A stretch of 64,000 nucleotides of DNA from Candidatus Woesearchaeota archaeon (GTDB lineage Archaea; Nanobdellota; Nanobdellia; SCGC-AAA011-G17; PNOQ01). The first letter of the stretch is position 1. The number at the start of each line of letters is the position of its first letter. The DNA is taken from assembly GCA_964344555.1 (NCBI GenBank), contig CAYFNK010000004.1:494-64493 (forward strand). Reading direction: 5' to 3'. Made by a program: the position numbers and the translations under genes. Under the pieces are notes generated by a model that searched no databases, was not told the origin of the DNA, and was given only the letters and a program-made list of their open reading frames with translations. This document shows positions 3,749-53,067 of this stretch, one piece after another.

Positions 3749-3840
3749 GCGTCAGTAGGATAGTGGTAGTCCTCAACGTTGCCAATAAATTATTTTGAAG
3801 CAAAAACGTTGGAGCCCGGGTTCAATCCCCGGCTGACGCA
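3749..3840 (+). tRNA. tRNA-Gly(GCC) with a 21-nt canonical 37/38 intron (3785..3805)
   Basis: Acceptor GCGTCAG/CTGACGC plus A73, anticodon stem CAACG/CGTTG, loop TTGCCA|A, T arm CCGGG-TTCAATC-CCCGG. BHB: TTGC pairs with GCAA, flanked by 3-nt bulges CAA and AAA. Confidence 0.88.
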
Positions 3841-6677: not shown

Positions 6678-6766
6678 AGCCTCAGGAGAGATTCGAACTC
6701 TCAACCTGCTGCTATCTTTGGATTAACCCATACAAGGCAGCTGCTCTACCGTTGAGCCACTGAGGC
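6678..6766 (-). tRNA. tRNA-Thr(TGT) with a 17-nt intron at 37/38 (6714..6730)
   Basis: Minus-strand read: GCCTCAG TG GCTC AACGGTA GAGC A GCTGC CTTGTA[TGGGTTAATCCAAAGAT]A GCAGC AGGTT GAGAG TTCGAAT CTCTC CTGAGGC T. Confidence 0.85.
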
Positions 6767-29090: not shown

Positions 29091-29181
29091 GGGGCTATAG
29101 TTCAACAGCAGAATACCGGTCTCCAGAATATTTAAAAAATGGAGTAAACCGGCGATGGGAGTGCAAATCTCTCTGGCCCCA
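29091..29181 (+). tRNA. tRNA-Trp(CCA) with a 20-nt canonical intron (29127..29146)
   Basis: GGGGCTA TA GTTC AACAGCA GAAT A CCGGT CTCCAG[AATATTTAAAAAATGGAGTA]A ACCGG CGAT GGGAG TGCAAAT CTCTC TGGCCCC A. BHB: CTCC pairs with GGAG, bulges AGA and TAA. Confidence 0.85.
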
Positions 29182-33074: not shown

Positions 33075-33194
33075 TCCCACCACCAGGATTCGAACCTGGG
33101 ACCCCCCGGGTACGGCTGACCATCTTTCATCTAAGGTTTATACCTAATCGGATAGCATCTACAGCCGAGTGCTCTACCGCTGAGCTATAGTGGG
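33075..33194 (-). tRNA. tRNA-Tyr(GTA) with an intron of about 48 nt (about 33111..33158)
   Basis: Minus-strand read: CCCACTA TA GCTC AGCGGTA GAGC A CTCGG CTGTAG[...48 nt...]C CCGGG GGGTC CCAGG TTCGAAT CCTGG TGGTGGG A. The C1-G72 pair and A73 are the archaeal/eukaryal Tyr identity set. Confidence 0.85.
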
Positions 33195-35522: not shown

Positions 35523-35691
35523 TAAGATTTAGAGAAGAGTTTAAAAATATAAACTTAATGTATCTACTTCTCACCAAAAGTTTTATAAACAATCTACTTT
35601 CCCTCAAGGTATACCTTTCAGGTTCTCATATACATCAAAAATGGCCATAATATTTTAGATTTCATTTATTGATTTTAGTGAGAACTATCTT

Positions 35692-35763
35692 GCCTTGGTG
35701 GTGTAGTGGTTATCATAAGGCCCTGTCGCGGCCTTGACCCGGGTTCGATCCCCGGCCAGGGCG
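35692..35763 (+). tRNA. tRNA-Asp(GTC), no intron
   Basis: GCCTTGG...AGGCC CTGTCGC GGCCT TGAC CCGGG TTCGATC CCCGG CCAGGGC G. Confidence 0.9.
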
Positions 35764-35777
35764 TGTATATGGGCGAA

Positions 35778-35882
35778 GGACTGGTAGCTCAGCTTGGTAG
35801 AGCACTTGGCTTTTAACCAAGGGGTCGCGGGTTCAAATGTGAAGGTCTTTGTTGACTTTCATTGAAATTCCCGTCCGGTCCA
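35778..35882 (+). tRNA. tRNA-Lys(TTT) with a 31-nt non-canonical intron in the T-loop (position 59/60)
   Basis: GGACTGG TA GCTC AGCTTGGTA GAGC A CTTGG CTTTTAA CCAAG GGGTC GCGGG TTCAAA[31 nt]T CCCGT CCGGTCC A. It lies 14 nt after tRNA-Asp. Confidence 0.85.
35838..35868 (+). other. tRNA-Lys T-loop intron with a canonical 3-4-3 bulge-helix-bulge
   Basis: Central helix TTCA/TGAA, 5' bulge AAT, 3' bulge ATT, and a 9-bp inner helix GTGAAGGTC/GACTTTCAT with loop TTTGTT. Cleavage after the second bulge nucleotide restores the T-loop TTCAAAT. Confidence 0.8.
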
Positions 35883-35904: not shown

Positions 35905-36144
35905 ATGGTAGATTTCGATATTACAAAACACAGTCTTGTTCCTAAACATGTAAAACTTAGCGAAGAAGAAAAACAAGAGCTGTTAAAAAAACATGGTTTA
36001 GACTTGAGTCAGTTACCTATGATCCTTTTGAGTGATGCAGCAATACAAGATCTTAGACCAGAAGTTGGTAATGTTATTAAAATTATAAGAGATAGTCCTA
36101 CTGATGTTGAAAGTATTTTTTATAGGGTGGTAGTTCATGGTTAA
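35905..36144 (+). CDS. rpoH: RNA polymerase subunit H (Rpo5)
   Basis: HSLVPKHVKLSEEEKQELLKKHGL...LPMILLSDAAIQ...YRVVV. Confidence 0.9.
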   Translation: MVDFDITKHSLVPKHVKLSEEEKQELLKKHGLDLSQLPMILLSDAAIQDLRPEVGNVIKIIRDSPTDVESIFYRVVVHG

Positions 36145-37621
36145 AGGTTACAAAGATTTGATATCAAATCATTTCGAAAATCATTCTTTTGTAGAACAAG
36201 ATATAAACTCTTTTAATGAATTTTTAGAGAGAGGTTTACAAAAAATTGTTGATGATGTTGGAGATATAGTTCCAACAATTATCCCCCAAGAATATGAAAA
36301 TTTTAAAATCAAATTAGGTAAGGTTCAGGTTGGTAAGCCAGAGATAACTGAAGCTGATGGTTCTAAACGTCCCATTTATCCTATGGAATCTAGATTGAGA
36401 CAATTAACTTATTCTGCGCCTATTTATTTAGAAGTTAGTGCCCATATTAATGATGTTCAAAGAGAATCTTTTACTTCACAAATCTGTAAAATACCAATTA
36501 TGCTTAAATCTAATAACTGTCATCTTAATGGATTGAAAAAAAAAGACTTGATCAAACATGGAGAAGATTCTGATGATCACGGAGGATATTTTGTTATTAA
36601 TGGTAATGAAAGAACTTTCATCATAGTTGAGGATCTAGCTTCTAATAAATTATTTGTTAAAAAATCTTCTACTGGTCCAAGCAAGTATATTGGGAAATTA
36701 TTCTCTGAAAAAGGGAATTATAGAATTCCCCATACGGTAGAACAGATGAAAGATGGAGTTATATATTTTAGTTTTAGTAGATTTAAAAGAATACCAATTA
36801 TCGCAGTTATTAAAGCACTAGGTTTGACTTCTGATAAGGAGGTAATGAGTTTAATTTCTTTAGAAGGTGGACAAGATGATGTTTTGGTTAATTTATACAA
36901 TAGCGTTGAATTGAAGAATCAAAATGATGCTTTGGATTTCTTAGCTAAACAGGCAGGAATATTACAAAAAGAATTTAAACATGAAAAAATATTAGAACAA
37001 CTTGATAAGTATTTGTTACCTCATCTAGGATCTACTTCTAAAAGTAGAACTACTAAAGCACACAATCTTTGTAAACTAATTAAAAAATATTTGATGATTT
37101 CTTCTGAAGGAGTTAAGTCTCAAAGTCAAGATCATTATACAAATAAGAGACTAAAATTATCTGGAGATCTTTTAACAGATTTATTTAGAGTAAATGTTAA
37201 TTCACTTGTACAAGATATTTTGTATAATTTCCAAAGACTTGTTAAAAGAGGAAAATTCAGTTCTATTAGAATAATTATAAGGGATCAATTATTAACTCAA
37301 AGAATAAAGAGCGCTATAGCCACTGGTACGTGGCCCGCTGGTAGAAAAGGTATAAGTCAAAATATGGCTAGAACTAATTTTATAGATAATATTTCACATC
37401 TTCAAAGAGTAGTTAGTTTGTTAACTTCTACTCAAGAAAATTTTGAGGCAAGAGCTTTACATAGTACCCATTGGGGAAGACTTTGTCCAGTTGAAACTCC
37501 GGAAGGAACACCTATAGGTTTGAGAAAAAATCTTTCTTTGTTGTCTAAAATAACTACGAAGGATTATTCTGAGGAAAAAGTAAAAAAAATTTTGGAGGGG
37601 TCTGGACTTAAATCTGTTTAA
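36137..37621 (+). CDS. rpoB2: RNA polymerase subunit B'' (N-terminal half of Rpo2)
   Basis: HQIDSFN-like FVEQDINSFNEFL, and a C-terminal HWGRLCPVETPEGTPIGLRKNL. Confidence 0.95.
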   Translation: MVKGYKDLISNHFENHSFVEQDINSFNEFLERGLQKIVDDVGDIVPTIIPQEYENFKIKLGKVQVGKPEITEADGSKRPIYPMESRLRQLTYSAPIYLEVSAHINDVQRESFTSQICKIPIMLKSNNCHLNGLKKKDLIKHGEDSDDHGGYFVINGNERTFIIVEDLASNKLFVKKSSTGPSKYIGKLFSEKGNYRIPHTVEQMKDGVIYFSFSRFKRIPIIAVIKALGLTSDKEVMSLISLEGGQDDVLVNLYNSVELKNQNDALDFLAKQAGILQKEFKHEKILEQLDKYLLPHLGSTSKSRTTKAHNLCKLIKKYLMISSEGVKSQSQDHYTNKRLKLSGDLLTDLFRVNVNSLVQDILYNFQRLVKRGKFSSIRIIIRDQLLTQRIKSAIATGTWPAGRKGISQNMARTNFIDNISHLQRVVSLLTSTQENFEARALHSTHWGRLCPVETPEGTPIGLRKNLSLLSKITTKDYSEEKVKKILEGSGLKSV

Positions 37622-37622
37622 A

Positions 37623-39425
37623 ATGGTTGATGTTTATTTAGATGAAAAGTTTATAGGTACCGTTGCCGATAAAGATAGTTTTATCAATGATTTTAAGATT
37701 AAAAGAAGAAAGGGGGATATTCCAGATTCTATAAATTTAAATTATGACGAAGAATTTAATGAAATTTATGTTGATTCTAAAAGGGGAAGATGTAGAAGGC
37801 CTCTAATCTTGGTTAAAGATGGAGAATCTAAGTTAACTAAAGAACACATTGAAGCTGTTGAGAAAAGCGATATTAAATGGAATGATCTTATAGAAAAAGG
37901 TATAATAGAATATGTTGATGCAGGTGAAGAAGAAAATTGTTTTGTTGCATTGTCTGAAGATGAATTGACAAAAGAGCATACACATTTAGAGATAAGTCCA
38001 GTTGTTATACTTGGAATTTGTACTTCTCTTGTCCCATTTTCTAATTTTGGATCTTCTTCCAGATTAATCAGAGGTTCTAAAATTCAAAAGCAGTCATTAG
38101 GATTATATGCTTCTAATTATCCATTAAGATTTGATACCGATGCTAGTTTATTGCACTATCCTCAAAGACCAATAGTTAAATCCTTTATGCATGATGTTTT
38201 CAAGTATGATGAACACCCTTGTGGACAAAATTTTACAATAGCAGTTATGAGTTATGAAGGATATAACATGCAGGATGCTATCATATTAAATAAGGGTAGT
38301 GTTCAAAGGGGAATTGCTAGATCACAATTCTTTAGACCATATTCTATGGTTGAACTTAGGTATTCTGGAGGCCTGACGGACGAGATAGGAATCCCAGATA
38401 AGGAAGTTAAAGGATATAGAGCAGAAACTGATTATAAAAACTTGGAAGATGATGGAATAGTTTTCAGTGGCGCAAATATGGACACAGATGATGTAATTAT
38501 TGGTAGAACTAGTCCTCCAAGATTTTTAGGTAATTTTGAGAAATTTAATATTGCTGCAAGTACTAGAAGAGAAAGTTCAACAGTTATTAGAGAAGGAATT
38601 AAAGGTACTGTTGATGATGTAATGCTTTCTGAAAATGAAGAAGGTAATAGACTTGTTAGGGTAAGATTGAGAGAACATAGAATTCCAGAAATAGGGGATA
38701 AATTTGCTTCTAGACATGGTCAAAAGGGAGTTATTGGTTTACTTGTTCCTCATGAAGATATGCCATTTAGTTCAAGAGGAATAACACCAGATATAATTTT
38801 CTCACCACATAGTATTCCTTCAAGAATGACTGTTTCTCATCTTTTAGAAGCATTAGCTGGTAAGACTGGAGCATTATCTGGTTCTCAAATAGATGCTACT
38901 ACTTTTGATGCTCCTTCTGAAGAAGAATTAAGAGGCACACTTTTAGATTATGGATTTAAGGAAGATGGGACAGAGAGATTTTATAATCCTATAAATGGCA
39001 AGATGTTCAAAGCTAGAATTTATGTTGGAAATATGTATTATTTGAAACTTAAACATATGGTTTCAAATAAATTACATGCAAGAGCTTCAGGTAGAATACA
39101 ATTATTAACAAGACAGCCCGTAGAGGGAAGGGTTATGGGTGGAGGATTAAGACTTGGGGAGATGGAGAAAGATTGTTTAGTAGCTCATGGTGCATCTACA
39201 TTATTAAAAGAAAGATTTGATTCAGATAAAACAATGTTTTACGTCTGTGAAGATTGTGGAATGTTTGCTGTGTATGATGGATATAAAAATAAGGCACATT
39301 GTTTAAGATGTGGATCAAATACAAATATCCACACTATAGAATTAAGTTATGCTTTCAAGTTGTTATTGGATGAGATGAAATCGTTAATGATAGACCCAAA
39401 AATGAAATTAAGGGATAAGTTTTGA
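37623..39425 (+). CDS. rpoB1: RNA polymerase subunit B' (C-terminal half of Rpo2)
   Basis: GDKFASRHGQKGV, GGLRLGEMEKDCL and a C-terminal Zn ribbon CEDCG...CLRCG. Confidence 0.95.
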   Translation: MVDVYLDEKFIGTVADKDSFINDFKIKRRKGDIPDSINLNYDEEFNEIYVDSKRGRCRRPLILVKDGESKLTKEHIEAVEKSDIKWNDLIEKGIIEYVDAGEEENCFVALSEDELTKEHTHLEISPVVILGICTSLVPFSNFGSSSRLIRGSKIQKQSLGLYASNYPLRFDTDASLLHYPQRPIVKSFMHDVFKYDEHPCGQNFTIAVMSYEGYNMQDAIILNKGSVQRGIARSQFFRPYSMVELRYSGGLTDEIGIPDKEVKGYRAETDYKNLEDDGIVFSGANMDTDDVIIGRTSPPRFLGNFEKFNIAASTRRESSTVIREGIKGTVDDVMLSENEEGNRLVRVRLREHRIPEIGDKFASRHGQKGVIGLLVPHEDMPFSSRGITPDIIFSPHSIPSRMTVSHLLEALAGKTGALSGSQIDATTFDAPSEEELRGTLLDYGFKEDGTERFYNPINGKMFKARIYVGNMYYLKLKHMVSNKLHARASGRIQLLTRQPVEGRVMGGGLRLGEMEKDCLVAHGASTLLKERFDSDKTMFYVCEDCGMFAVYDGYKNKAHCLRCGSNTNIHTIELSYAFKLLLDEMKSLMIDPKMKLRDKF

Positions 39426-52932: not shown

Positions 52933-53067
52933 GCCGCGATCGCATAATCTGGTATTGCACAGAATCTTATAACTTTAGGTATAAGGTGTGTAAGCCTGGA
53001 AAAATCCAGAAAGATACCAGTTAGCCTGACCCGCAAGGGTGTCTGGGTTCAAATCCCAGTCGCGGCG
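52933..53067 (+). tRNA. Class II tRNA-Ser(GGA) with two introns: 31 nt at 29/30 (52963..52993) and 21 nt at 37/38 (53002..53022)
   Basis: The spliced model is GCCGCGA TC GCA TAATCTGGTAT TGC A CAGGC CTGGAAA GCCTG ACCCGCAAGGGTGT CTGGG TTCAAAT CCCAG TCGCGGC G. It has a perfect anticodon stem, a long variable arm with a GCAA loop, and G73. Both introns sit in 3-4-3 BHB-like folds. Confidence 0.75.

What the first reader, a model, noticed from the sequence alone, without database searches (positions are those of the whole stretch)
35838..35868. tRNA-Lys(TTT) T-loop intron at 59/60 with a textbook bulge-helix-bulge
Between the T-stem strands GCGGG and CCCGT lie 38 nt instead of 7.

Folding gives a 4-bp central helix TTCA/TGAA flanked by 3-nt bulges (AAT on the 5' strand, ATT on the 3' strand), plus a 9-bp inner hairpin. 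Cutting after the second nucleotide of each bulge removes exactly 31 nt and regenerates the T-loop TTCAAAT.

An intron that disrupts the T-loop must be removed before T-loop/D-loop tertiary folding, which makes it a functionally interesting maturation checkpoint.
Basis: seen in the sequence. Interest (0 to 1): 0.6.

Follow-up and report, generated by a model that had tools for sequence, protein, structure and literature searches.

The report
T-loop intron in lysine tRNA gene
The only gene for the most-used lysine tRNA of this tiny DPANN archaeon is interrupted in its T-loop by a real 31-base protein-spliced intron; the type is already known in archaea, so this is a clean new example, not a new kind of element.

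Summary
Window 35778-35882 is a 105-nt pre-tRNA-Lys(UUU). Its T-stem strands, GCGGG and CCCGT, lie 38 nt apart. The insert folds into a strict hBHBh' motif: a UUCA/UGAA central helix, 3-nt bulges AAU and AUU, and a 9-bp inner hairpin.

Removing 35838-35868 leaves a perfect 74-nt tRNA-Lys(UUU). That product is identical to the uninterrupted genes of two related species.

The same 59/60 intron is present in 15 of 25 species genomes of the family and in at least 31 of 240 genomes of the order. The bulges and central helix are conserved. All nine inner-helix pairs covary.

A tree from the linked rpoB'' gene indicates at least three precise losses.

This is the genome's only tRNA-Lys(UUU) gene, and AAA is its commonest codon. 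A single 174-aa EndA of the alpha4-like type and an RtcB ligase are encoded.

Introns at 59/60 are already documented, for example in ARMAN-2. Heavy tRNA gene disruption in DPANN lineages with alpha4 EndA has also been reported.

Verdict: a real intron and a new member of a known kind. The "maturation checkpoint" idea is untested and is weakened by the repeated clean losses.

The parts
35691..35764 (+). tRNA-Asp(GUC), uninterrupted, 13 nt upstream of tRNA-Lys
   Evidence: ARAGORN and Rfam at 57.1 bits. In relatives G017, G007, G013 and G008 this neighbouring gene also carries a 59/60 T-loop intron.
35778..35882 (+). Complete pre-tRNA-Lys(UUU) gene, 105 nt
   Evidence: Sequence; fold; the spliced form is called tRNA-Lys(ttt) by ARAGORN.
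35778..35837 (+). 5' exon, tRNA positions 1-59 (acceptor, D-arm, anticodon arm with CTTTTAA loop, variable loop, T-stem 5' strand, T-loop 54-59)
   Evidence: 98-100% identical to orthologues across the family.
35832..35835 (+). Central BHB helix, 5' strand (UUCA = T-loop 54-57)
   Evidence: Pairs with 35863-35866 in the centroid fold. The pairing is invariant in 15 orthologues. G031 shows a compensatory TTCG/CGAA.
35836..35838 (+). 5' bulge AAU; inferred cut after the second base (59|intron)
   Evidence: The cutting register is fixed by relatives: bulges AAA and AGU can only yield the intronless T-loop UUCAAAU if each is cut after its second base.
35838..35868 (+). 31-nt intron
   Evidence: Absent from orthologues G001, G002, G004, G015 and the g3 genomes, which read TTCAAATCCCGT. 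Its removal restores the tRNA.
35839..35862 (+). Inner helix h' (9 bp) with 6-nt loop
   Evidence: All 9 pairs show changes on both sides among 15 orthologues.
35863..35866 (+). Central BHB helix, 3' strand (UGAA, within the intron)
35867..35869 (+). 3' bulge AUU; inferred cut after the second base (intron|60)
35869..35882 (+). 3' exon: U60, T-stem 3' strand CCCGU, acceptor 3' strand CCGGUCC, discriminator A
35905..36144 (+). rpoH, first gene of the RNA polymerase operon (split rpoB'' and rpoB' follow). It is the conserved downstream neighbour used to establish orthology.
   Evidence: ORF list. The same tRNA-Lys-rpoH-rpoB'' arrangement is seen in relatives.

Best explanation
Window 35838-35868 is a genuine archaeal protein-spliced (bulge-helix-bulge) intron. 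It sits between positions 59 and 60 of the genome's only tRNA-Lys(UUU) gene.

Proposed mechanism, steps inferred:
1. In the precursor, the intron's 3' end (UGAA) pairs with T-loop bases U54-A57. With the T-stem outside and a 9-bp hairpin inside, this forms a strict hBHBh' motif.
2. The geometry copies a canonical 37/38 intron in the 7-nt anticodon loop, with 54-60 standing for 32-38.
3. The splicing endonuclease EndA cuts after the second base of each 3-nt bulge. In this genome EndA is a single 174-aa, apparently alpha4-type enzyme.
4. RtcB joins the exons, giving the T-loop UUCAAAU and a normal 74-nt tRNA.

The intron belongs to a lineage-wide family of T-loop introns in this DPANN (Nanoarchaeota/Woesearchaeota-related) order. 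It is old, it has been lost precisely several times, and related copies sit in other tRNA genes of relatives. It most likely persists as a tolerated or selfish element, not as a regulator.

Shown here: the motif, its conservation and covariation, the exact match between the predicted product and intronless orthologues, and the presence of both enzyme genes. Inferred: the actual cleavage and ligation in the cell, the oligomeric state of EndA, and the absence of a selected function.
For: - The fold gives hBHBh' with z about -4.7.
- In-silico splicing gives a 74-nt tRNA-Lys(ttt) identical to the uninterrupted genes of G001 (same genus) and G015.
- An intron at the same site occurs in 15 of 25 family genomes, each of which has exactly one match to the tRNA-Lys(UUU) pattern used.
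- In the order, 29 of 240 genomes match the strict pattern with the intron, and G051 and G029 add two more. These fall in 10 families, with intron lengths of 12-46 nt.
- Covariation on 15 orthologues: 92% of cells paired, 9 of 9 inner-helix pairs changed on both sides, 0 of 500 shuffles reach the observed score, and shifted registers drop to 36-54% paired.
- G031 shows a compensatory TTCG/CGAA change in the central helix.
- This is the sole tRNA-Lys(UUU) gene, and AAA is the most frequent codon, 7.2% of 92,144 codons.
- EndA is present with both Pfam domains. It aligns without gaps to the M. jannaschii alpha4 enzyme, and its best solved relative is the N. equitans alpha subunit.
- RtcB is present.
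- Introns at 59/60 have been documented and cleaved in vitro in ARMAN-2 (PMC3239211).
Against: - There is no RNA-level evidence.
- No BHB-aware tRNA finder such as tRNAscan-SE or SPLITS was available.
- One paper states that a typical alpha4 endonuclease acts on strict BHB motifs at the canonical position only (PMC3239211). Only one EndA gene was found here, in a genome that is 87% complete. A missing beta subunit or an unusual specificity cannot be excluded.
Confidence: 0.9

Rival explanations
1. The intron is kept by selection as a maturation checkpoint or regulator. By locking U54-A57 in a helix, it would delay elbow formation, T-loop modification, end processing or aminoacylation of the most heavily used tRNA until splicing has occurred.
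For: The central helix does sequester T-loop bases 54-57. In the red alga C. merolae, Pus4 does not make pseudouridine 55 on pre-tRNAs with a T-arm intron (PMC9602550). The intron has persisted across 10 families of the order.
Against: The intron was lost precisely at least three times. One loss (G015) lies inside an otherwise intron-bearing clade, and the mature tRNA sequences are identical. Ten of 25 family genomes manage without it. Length and inner sequence are free to vary from 12 to 46 nt. This pattern fits a tolerated element.
Confidence: 0.12
2. The gene is a decaying pseudogene, or the 31 nt are not removed and the RNA is non-functional.
For: ARAGORN does not call the gene, and the Rfam tRNA hit is truncated at 33.9 bits.
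Against: It is the only tRNA-Lys(UUU) gene in a genome whose commonest codon is AAA. The exons are 98-100% conserved across the family while the intron diverges with compensatory changes. The motif is an ideal substrate for the encoded EndA.
Confidence: 0.03
3. The insert is a retained structural expansion of the T-arm, an extra hairpin in the mature tRNA, and not an intron.
For: The hairpin is stable and conserved as a structure.
Against: Close relatives have a normal 7-nt T-loop in an otherwise identical tRNA. What is conserved is the BHB geometry (3-nt bulges, a 4-bp helix to UUCA), not any feature of the hairpin. A T-loop paired to UGAA could not form the universal elbow.
Confidence: 0.02

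Closest known systems
ARMAN-2 (Ca. Micrarchaeum acidiphilum) pre-tRNA-Pro(GGG) and pre-tRNA-Cys(GCA) introns at 59/60 (Fujishima et al. 2011, PMC3239211)
   Same: Both are DPANN archaea with an intron between T-loop positions 59 and 60. The tRNA-Pro intron forms a strict hBHBh' motif as here. The tRNA-Cys 59/60 intron was cleaved in vitro by the host endonuclease.
   Different: The tRNA identity differs (Lys-UUU here). ARMAN-2 uses a three-unit epsilon2 EndA with broad specificity, whereas this genome shows one 174-aa alpha-type gene. The ARMAN-2 tRNA-Cys intron is a relaxed hBH motif of 13 nt.
Canonical archaeal 37/38 BHB tRNA intron (Marck & Grosjean 2003, as summarised in PMC6379350)
   Same: The motif is identical: two 3-nt bulges separated by 4 bp and flanked by helices. 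The position within a 7-nt loop closed by a 5-bp stem is also the same, between loop bases 6 and 7.
   Different: This intron lies in the T-arm, not the anticodon arm. It therefore blocks the T-loop/D-loop elbow and leaves the anticodon loop free.
tRNA intron transposition in Thermoproteales (Fujishima et al. 2010, cited in PMC4033280)
   Same: In relatives, identical or near-identical T-loop introns sit in different tRNA genes: Asp and Lys in G007, and putative Gly (anticodon read by eye) and class II tRNAs in G013, G007 and G010. This suggests spread between genes.
   Different: This is a different phylum, and all copies seen here occupy one site (59/60). In the window's own genome only tRNA-Lys carries the intron.
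DPANN lineages with alpha4-type EndA and many disrupted tRNA genes (Kaneta et al. 2018, PMC5829648)
   Same: The genome has a single alpha-type EndA. About a third of its tRNA genes are interrupted, judging from gene lengths of 89-135 nt.
   Different: That paper links the trend to an 'L3' loop insert. This EndA aligns without any gap to the M. jannaschii enzyme over residues 27-174, and it lacks the 6-residue insert of the N. equitans alpha subunit. I could not confirm where L3 lies.

Membership tests
Archaeal BHB (hBHBh') tRNA intron | Two 3-nt bulges on opposite strands separated by a 4-bp helix | tested here: met
   Bulges AAU (35836-38) and AUU (35867-69), with helix UUCA/UGAA between them. 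Seen in the centroid folds and conserved in 15 orthologues.
Archaeal BHB (hBHBh') tRNA intron | Flanking outer helix (h) and inner helix (h') | tested here: met
   The outer helix is the 5-bp T-stem and the inner helix is a 9-bp hairpin. All inner-helix pairs covary.
Archaeal BHB (hBHBh') tRNA intron | Excision at the bulges restores a canonical cloverleaf tRNA | tested here: met
   The 74-nt product is called tRNA-Lys(ttt) by ARAGORN and is identical to the intronless genes in G001 and G015.
Archaeal BHB (hBHBh') tRNA intron | Host encodes the splicing endonuclease EndA and the RtcB ligase | tested here: met
   EndA is at G000:C1:33639-34160(-), with PF02778 and PF01974. In the alignments it carries Tyr, His and Lys in the same conserved local motifs as the M. 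jannaschii and N. equitans enzymes. Taking these as the catalytic triad rests on my own knowledge. RtcB scores 593.6 bits.
Archaeal BHB (hBHBh') tRNA intron | The intron is actually removed from the RNA | not testable with these tools
alpha4 homotetrameric EndA | A single catalytic subunit gene of about 170-180 aa, with no separate structural beta subunit and no fused second unit | tested here: inconclusive
   One 174-aa gene was found. No second hit appeared with the Pfam model at E<=0.1 or with tblastn at E<5. However, the genome is 87% complete, the best solved relative is the alpha subunit of the heteromeric N. equitans enzyme, and the oligomeric state was not measured.
Mobile / transposed tRNA intron family | Near-identical intron sequences in different tRNA species | tested here: inconclusive
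   Met in relatives. The T-arm plus intron of G007 tRNA-Asp and tRNA-Lys are identical. One 45-nt intron occurs in three loci of G013 and G007. It is not met in the window's genome, where only tRNA-Lys has a 59/60 intron (whose output was cut mid-list at C2/C3).

The most novel reading that the evidence does not exclude
The intron may be one copy of a still-mobile family of BHB mini-introns that target the universal T-loop sequence. The intron's 3' UGAA would dock on UUCA (54-57) of any tRNA, allowing insertion at 59/60 by reverse splicing followed by recombination, or by gene conversion between T-arms.

This would explain three observations: identical copies in neighbouring tRNA-Asp and tRNA-Lys genes, copies in Ser, Gly, Arg and Ala tRNAs of relatives, and frequent clean losses. 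A relative (G008) carries a LAGLIDADG endonuclease gene inside a different (30/31) intron of the same tRNA-Lys, which hints at a DNA-level homing route as well.
Probability: 0.3. Interest if true: 0.6.

Novelty: new member of a known kind. Interest (0 to 1): 0.3.

Why it matters
It supplies a tRNA gene that standard finders miss or truncate. Without it the genome would appear to lack the tRNA for its commonest codon, so annotation and completeness estimates for such DPANN genomes are affected.

It also gives a well-resolved natural series for studying how archaeal tRNA introns are gained, copied and lost. The series has the same site, lengths of 12-46 nt, presence and absence within single genera, and copies in neighbouring tRNAs. 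The same series could show whether a plain alpha4-type endonuclease handles T-loop introns.

It does not reveal a new mechanism.

Tried and rejected
- **Naming the organism with rpoH.** The search for related loci with rpoH against named genomes returned only 4 loci. The nearest is a 'Nanoarchaeota archaeon' MAG at 61% identity. This was too few to survey the intron, so I used the genome search instead.
- **First alignment of relatives.** mixed strands, because loci for minus-strand matches are not re-oriented. It was redone.
- **Permissive BHB scan of the own genome.** The regex scan for T-loop BHB motifs gave 174 hits, mostly chance matches inside coding sequence. Part of the printed list (at C2/C3) was cut. 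The only hit in a tRNA context with an intron was tRNA-Lys.
- **Second tRNA-Lys(UUU).** None was found.
- **Second EndA subunit.** None was found.
- **Marck & Grosjean 2003.** The paper is not held in the library, so the rule that EndA cuts after the second bulge base rests on the comparison with intronless orthologues and not on a citation.
- **Promoter for rpoH inside the intron.** Considered and dropped. The intron has no TATA-like sequence, and no motif is conserved among the orthologous introns.

Full report
**Observation**

The sequence at 35778-35882 reads as a tRNA. It has acceptor stem GGACTGG/CCGGTCC, D-arm GCTC...GAGC, anticodon arm CTTGG-CTTTTAA-CCAAG, variable loop GGGTC and T-stem GCGGG (35827-31) / CCCGT (35870-74). 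The T-stem strands are separated by 38 nt instead of 7.

- UUCA (35832-35) paired to UGAA (35863-66);
- a 5' bulge AAU and a 3' bulge AUU;
- a 9-bp inner hairpin.

The z-scores are -4.7 and -4.8, and none of 200 shuffles folds as well. ARAGORN does not see the gene, and Rfam's tRNA model matches only the first 58 nt at 33.9 bits. Deleting 35838-35868 gives a 74-nt sequence that ARAGORN calls tRNA-Lys(ttt) with a normal cloverleaf.

**Genomic setting**

The window is contig C4 of a 525-kb assembly in 8 contigs, 87% complete and about 30% G+C. The nearest named record, found through RpoH, is a 'Nanoarchaeota archaeon' MAG. EndA relatives are labelled Woesearchaeota, Nanoarchaeota or Nanoarchaeia. 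This is therefore a small DPANN archaeon.

The gene lies 13 nt after an uninterrupted tRNA-Asp(GUC) and 22 nt before rpoH. The split rpoB''/rpoB' genes follow. This arrangement is conserved in relatives, which establishes orthology.

**Is it needed?**

The genome has 35 Rfam tRNA hits. The only other lysine tRNA is CUU, on C1. A scan for UUU anticodon stem-loops found no other tRNA-like context. AAA is the most frequent codon: 7.2% of 92,144 codons in 174 long ORFs, against 2.2% for AAG. This gene must therefore yield a working tRNA.

**Comparative evidence**

A BLAST search of 60 relatives found the 5' exon at 98-100% identity, followed by divergent sequence. After orientation, the orthologues fall into two classes:
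- uninterrupted genes reading TTCAAATCCCGT;
- genes with an insert at exactly this point.

A pattern search of all 25 species genomes of the family found one match to the tRNA-Lys(UUU) pattern in each. Fifteen carry the intron, at 17-31 nt.

| Genus | Genomes with the intron |
|---|---|
| own genus (g1) | 2 of 5 |
| g2 | 5 of 6 |
| g6 | 6 of 6 |
| g4 | 2 of 2 |
| g3 | 0 of 4 |
| g5 | 0 of 1 |
| g7 | 0 of 1 |

In every intron-bearing gene the layout is UUCA - AAN - hairpin - UGAA - A(G/U)U - T-stem.

Pair counts on 15 orthologues:
- 92% of cells are paired;
- all nine inner-helix pairs have changes on both sides;
- 0 of 500 shuffles reach the observed covariation;
- sliding the partner by 1-3 columns drops pairing to 36-54%.

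The central helix never varies within the family, because one strand is the conserved T-loop. In G031, from another family, the T-loop is TTCG and the intron strand is CGAA, a compensatory change.

The cutting register is fixed by the relatives. With bulges AAA and AGU, only cuts after the second base of each bulge reproduce the intronless T-loop UUCAAAU. The predicted spliced product of this window is identical to the uninterrupted genes of G001 (same genus) and G015.

**Distribution and history**

Across the 240 genomes of the order, a strict pattern finds the 59/60 intron in tRNA-Lys(UUU) in 29 genomes. G051 and G029 add two more. These 31 genomes span 10 families, with intron lengths of 12-46 nt. 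This is a lower bound, because the pattern is strict.

A maximum-likelihood tree of the linked RpoB'' N-terminal 400-430 residues needs at least four changes of intron state. One reading is presence at the base of the family plus family f28, followed by three losses: in genus g3, in the G001/G002/G004 clade of the window's own genus, and in G015. G015 is nested, with 100/98 support, among intron-bearing species. The losses are exact to the base.

**Enzymes**

The genome has one EndA gene (C1:33639-34160, minus strand; 174 aa). It has the N-terminal and catalytic domains. No second copy is found by tblastn.
- Its best solved relative is the N. equitans alpha subunit (E 2e-35).
- It aligns without gaps to the M. 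jannaschii homotetrameric enzyme over residues 27-174.
- It lacks the 6-residue insert of the N. equitans protein.

RtcB is present at 594 bits. A strict hBHBh' motif is what the narrow-specificity enzymes accept (PMC6379350). The local geometry equals that of a 37/38 intron in a 7-nt loop on a 5-bp stem (my inference), so no special specificity is required. Whether the enzyme is truly alpha4 is not shown.

**Comparison with what is known**

BHB motifs in D-loops, T-loops and acceptor stems are established (PMC6379350). In ARMAN-2, pre-tRNA-Pro(GGG) has a strict hBHBh' intron at 59/60. The ARMAN-2 pre-tRNA-Cys 59/60 intron was cleaved in vitro (PMC3239211). Kaneta et al. (PMC5829648) already noted that DPANN lineages with alpha4-type EndA, including Pacearchaeota and Woesearchaeota, show many disrupted tRNA genes and incomplete tRNA sets. 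This finding is a new member of that kind.

**Function**

The helix to U54-A57 must prevent the T-loop fold before splicing. In C. merolae, Pus4 does not act on pre-tRNAs with a T-arm intron (PMC9602550). An order of events, splicing before elbow formation, is therefore a reasonable inference.

A selected 'checkpoint' role is not supported. Ten of 25 family genomes lack the intron, some with an identical mature tRNA, and the intron's length and inner sequence drift freely.

**Signs of spread between genes**

A family-wide pattern for any T-arm with this intron layout found copies in other tRNAs:
- The neighbouring tRNA-Asp carries one in G017, G013, G007 and G008. In G007 the T-arm plus intron are identical between Asp and Lys.
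- One 45-nt intron is identical at three loci: a putative tRNA-Gly(UCC) in G013 and two putative class II tRNAs in G013 and G007.
- A related intron sits in two class II tRNAs of G010. It shares its ends (CATGTG...GCGTTGAAAG) with the tRNA-Lys intron of genus g2.
- Putative tRNA-Arg(UCU) in G020 and tRNA-Ala(UGC) in G010 also have 59/60 introns.

The identities of the Gly, Arg, Ala and class II genes were read by eye from the aligned sequences, not from a tRNA finder.

This resembles the intron transposition described for Thermoproteales (cited in PMC4033280). In the window's own genome only tRNA-Lys has the intron.

**Limits**

No BHB-aware tRNA finder was available. The genome is incomplete. 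The taxon is known only from the labels of relatives.

Noticed in passing
L039 (G008:C29:46150-46960), ORF 95-730: In a family relative, the orthologous tRNA-Lys(UUU) has no T-loop intron. Instead it carries an intron of about 650 nt at about 30/31, in the 5' strand of the anticodon stem. That intron encodes a 211-aa LAGLIDADG-type protein (PF14528, E 1.3e-9). A homing-endonuclease gene inside a protein-spliced tRNA intron is unusual and may bear on how these introns move.
   Followed up: partly
L042 (G010), L041 (G026), L040 (G046), L038 (G050): Short introns of about 14-55 nt at the same 30/31 site of tRNA-Lys(UUU) occur in several families of the order. G046 and G050 have both the 30/31 and the 59/60 intron. 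G029 (L037) has a probable anticodon-loop (about 37/38) intron plus the 59/60 intron. The 30/31 motif (CACU/GGUG helix, bulges UGA and AAG) seems to lack an outer helix, so it would be a relaxed BHB.
   Followed up: partly
L072 (G017), L073 (G007), L074 (G013); compare window 35691-35764: In these relatives the tRNA-Asp(GUC) just upstream of tRNA-Lys also has a 59/60 T-loop intron similar to the tRNA-Lys intron. In G007 the T-arm plus intron are identical in the two genes. In the window tRNA-Asp is uninterrupted.
   Followed up: partly
L075-L081 (G010:C4, C5, C13; G013:C9, C13; G007:C9; G020:C45): The same T-loop intron layout occurs in other tRNAs of the family: putative Ser-like class II, Gly(UCC), Arg(UCU) and Ala(UGC), with identities read by eye. 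One 45-nt intron is identical at three different loci, which suggests copying between genes.
   Followed up: partly
window 3749-3840, 6678-6766, 29091-29181, 33075-33194, 52933-53067: Most tRNA genes in the window are 89-135 nt long, which implies introns. ARAGORN assigns different identities depending on whether introns are allowed: Trp(cca) versus Gly(gcc) at 3749-3840, and Tyr(gta) versus Thr(tgt) at 6678-6766. Automatic anticodon calls here are unreliable without BHB-aware analysis.
   Followed up: no
window 36137-39425: rpoB is split into B'' (494 aa) and B' (600 aa), directly after rpoH and followed by rpoA'. The 22-nt spacer between tRNA-Lys and the rpoH start codon leaves little room for a separate promoter, so co-transcription of the tRNAs with the RNA polymerase operon is possible.
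   Followed up: no
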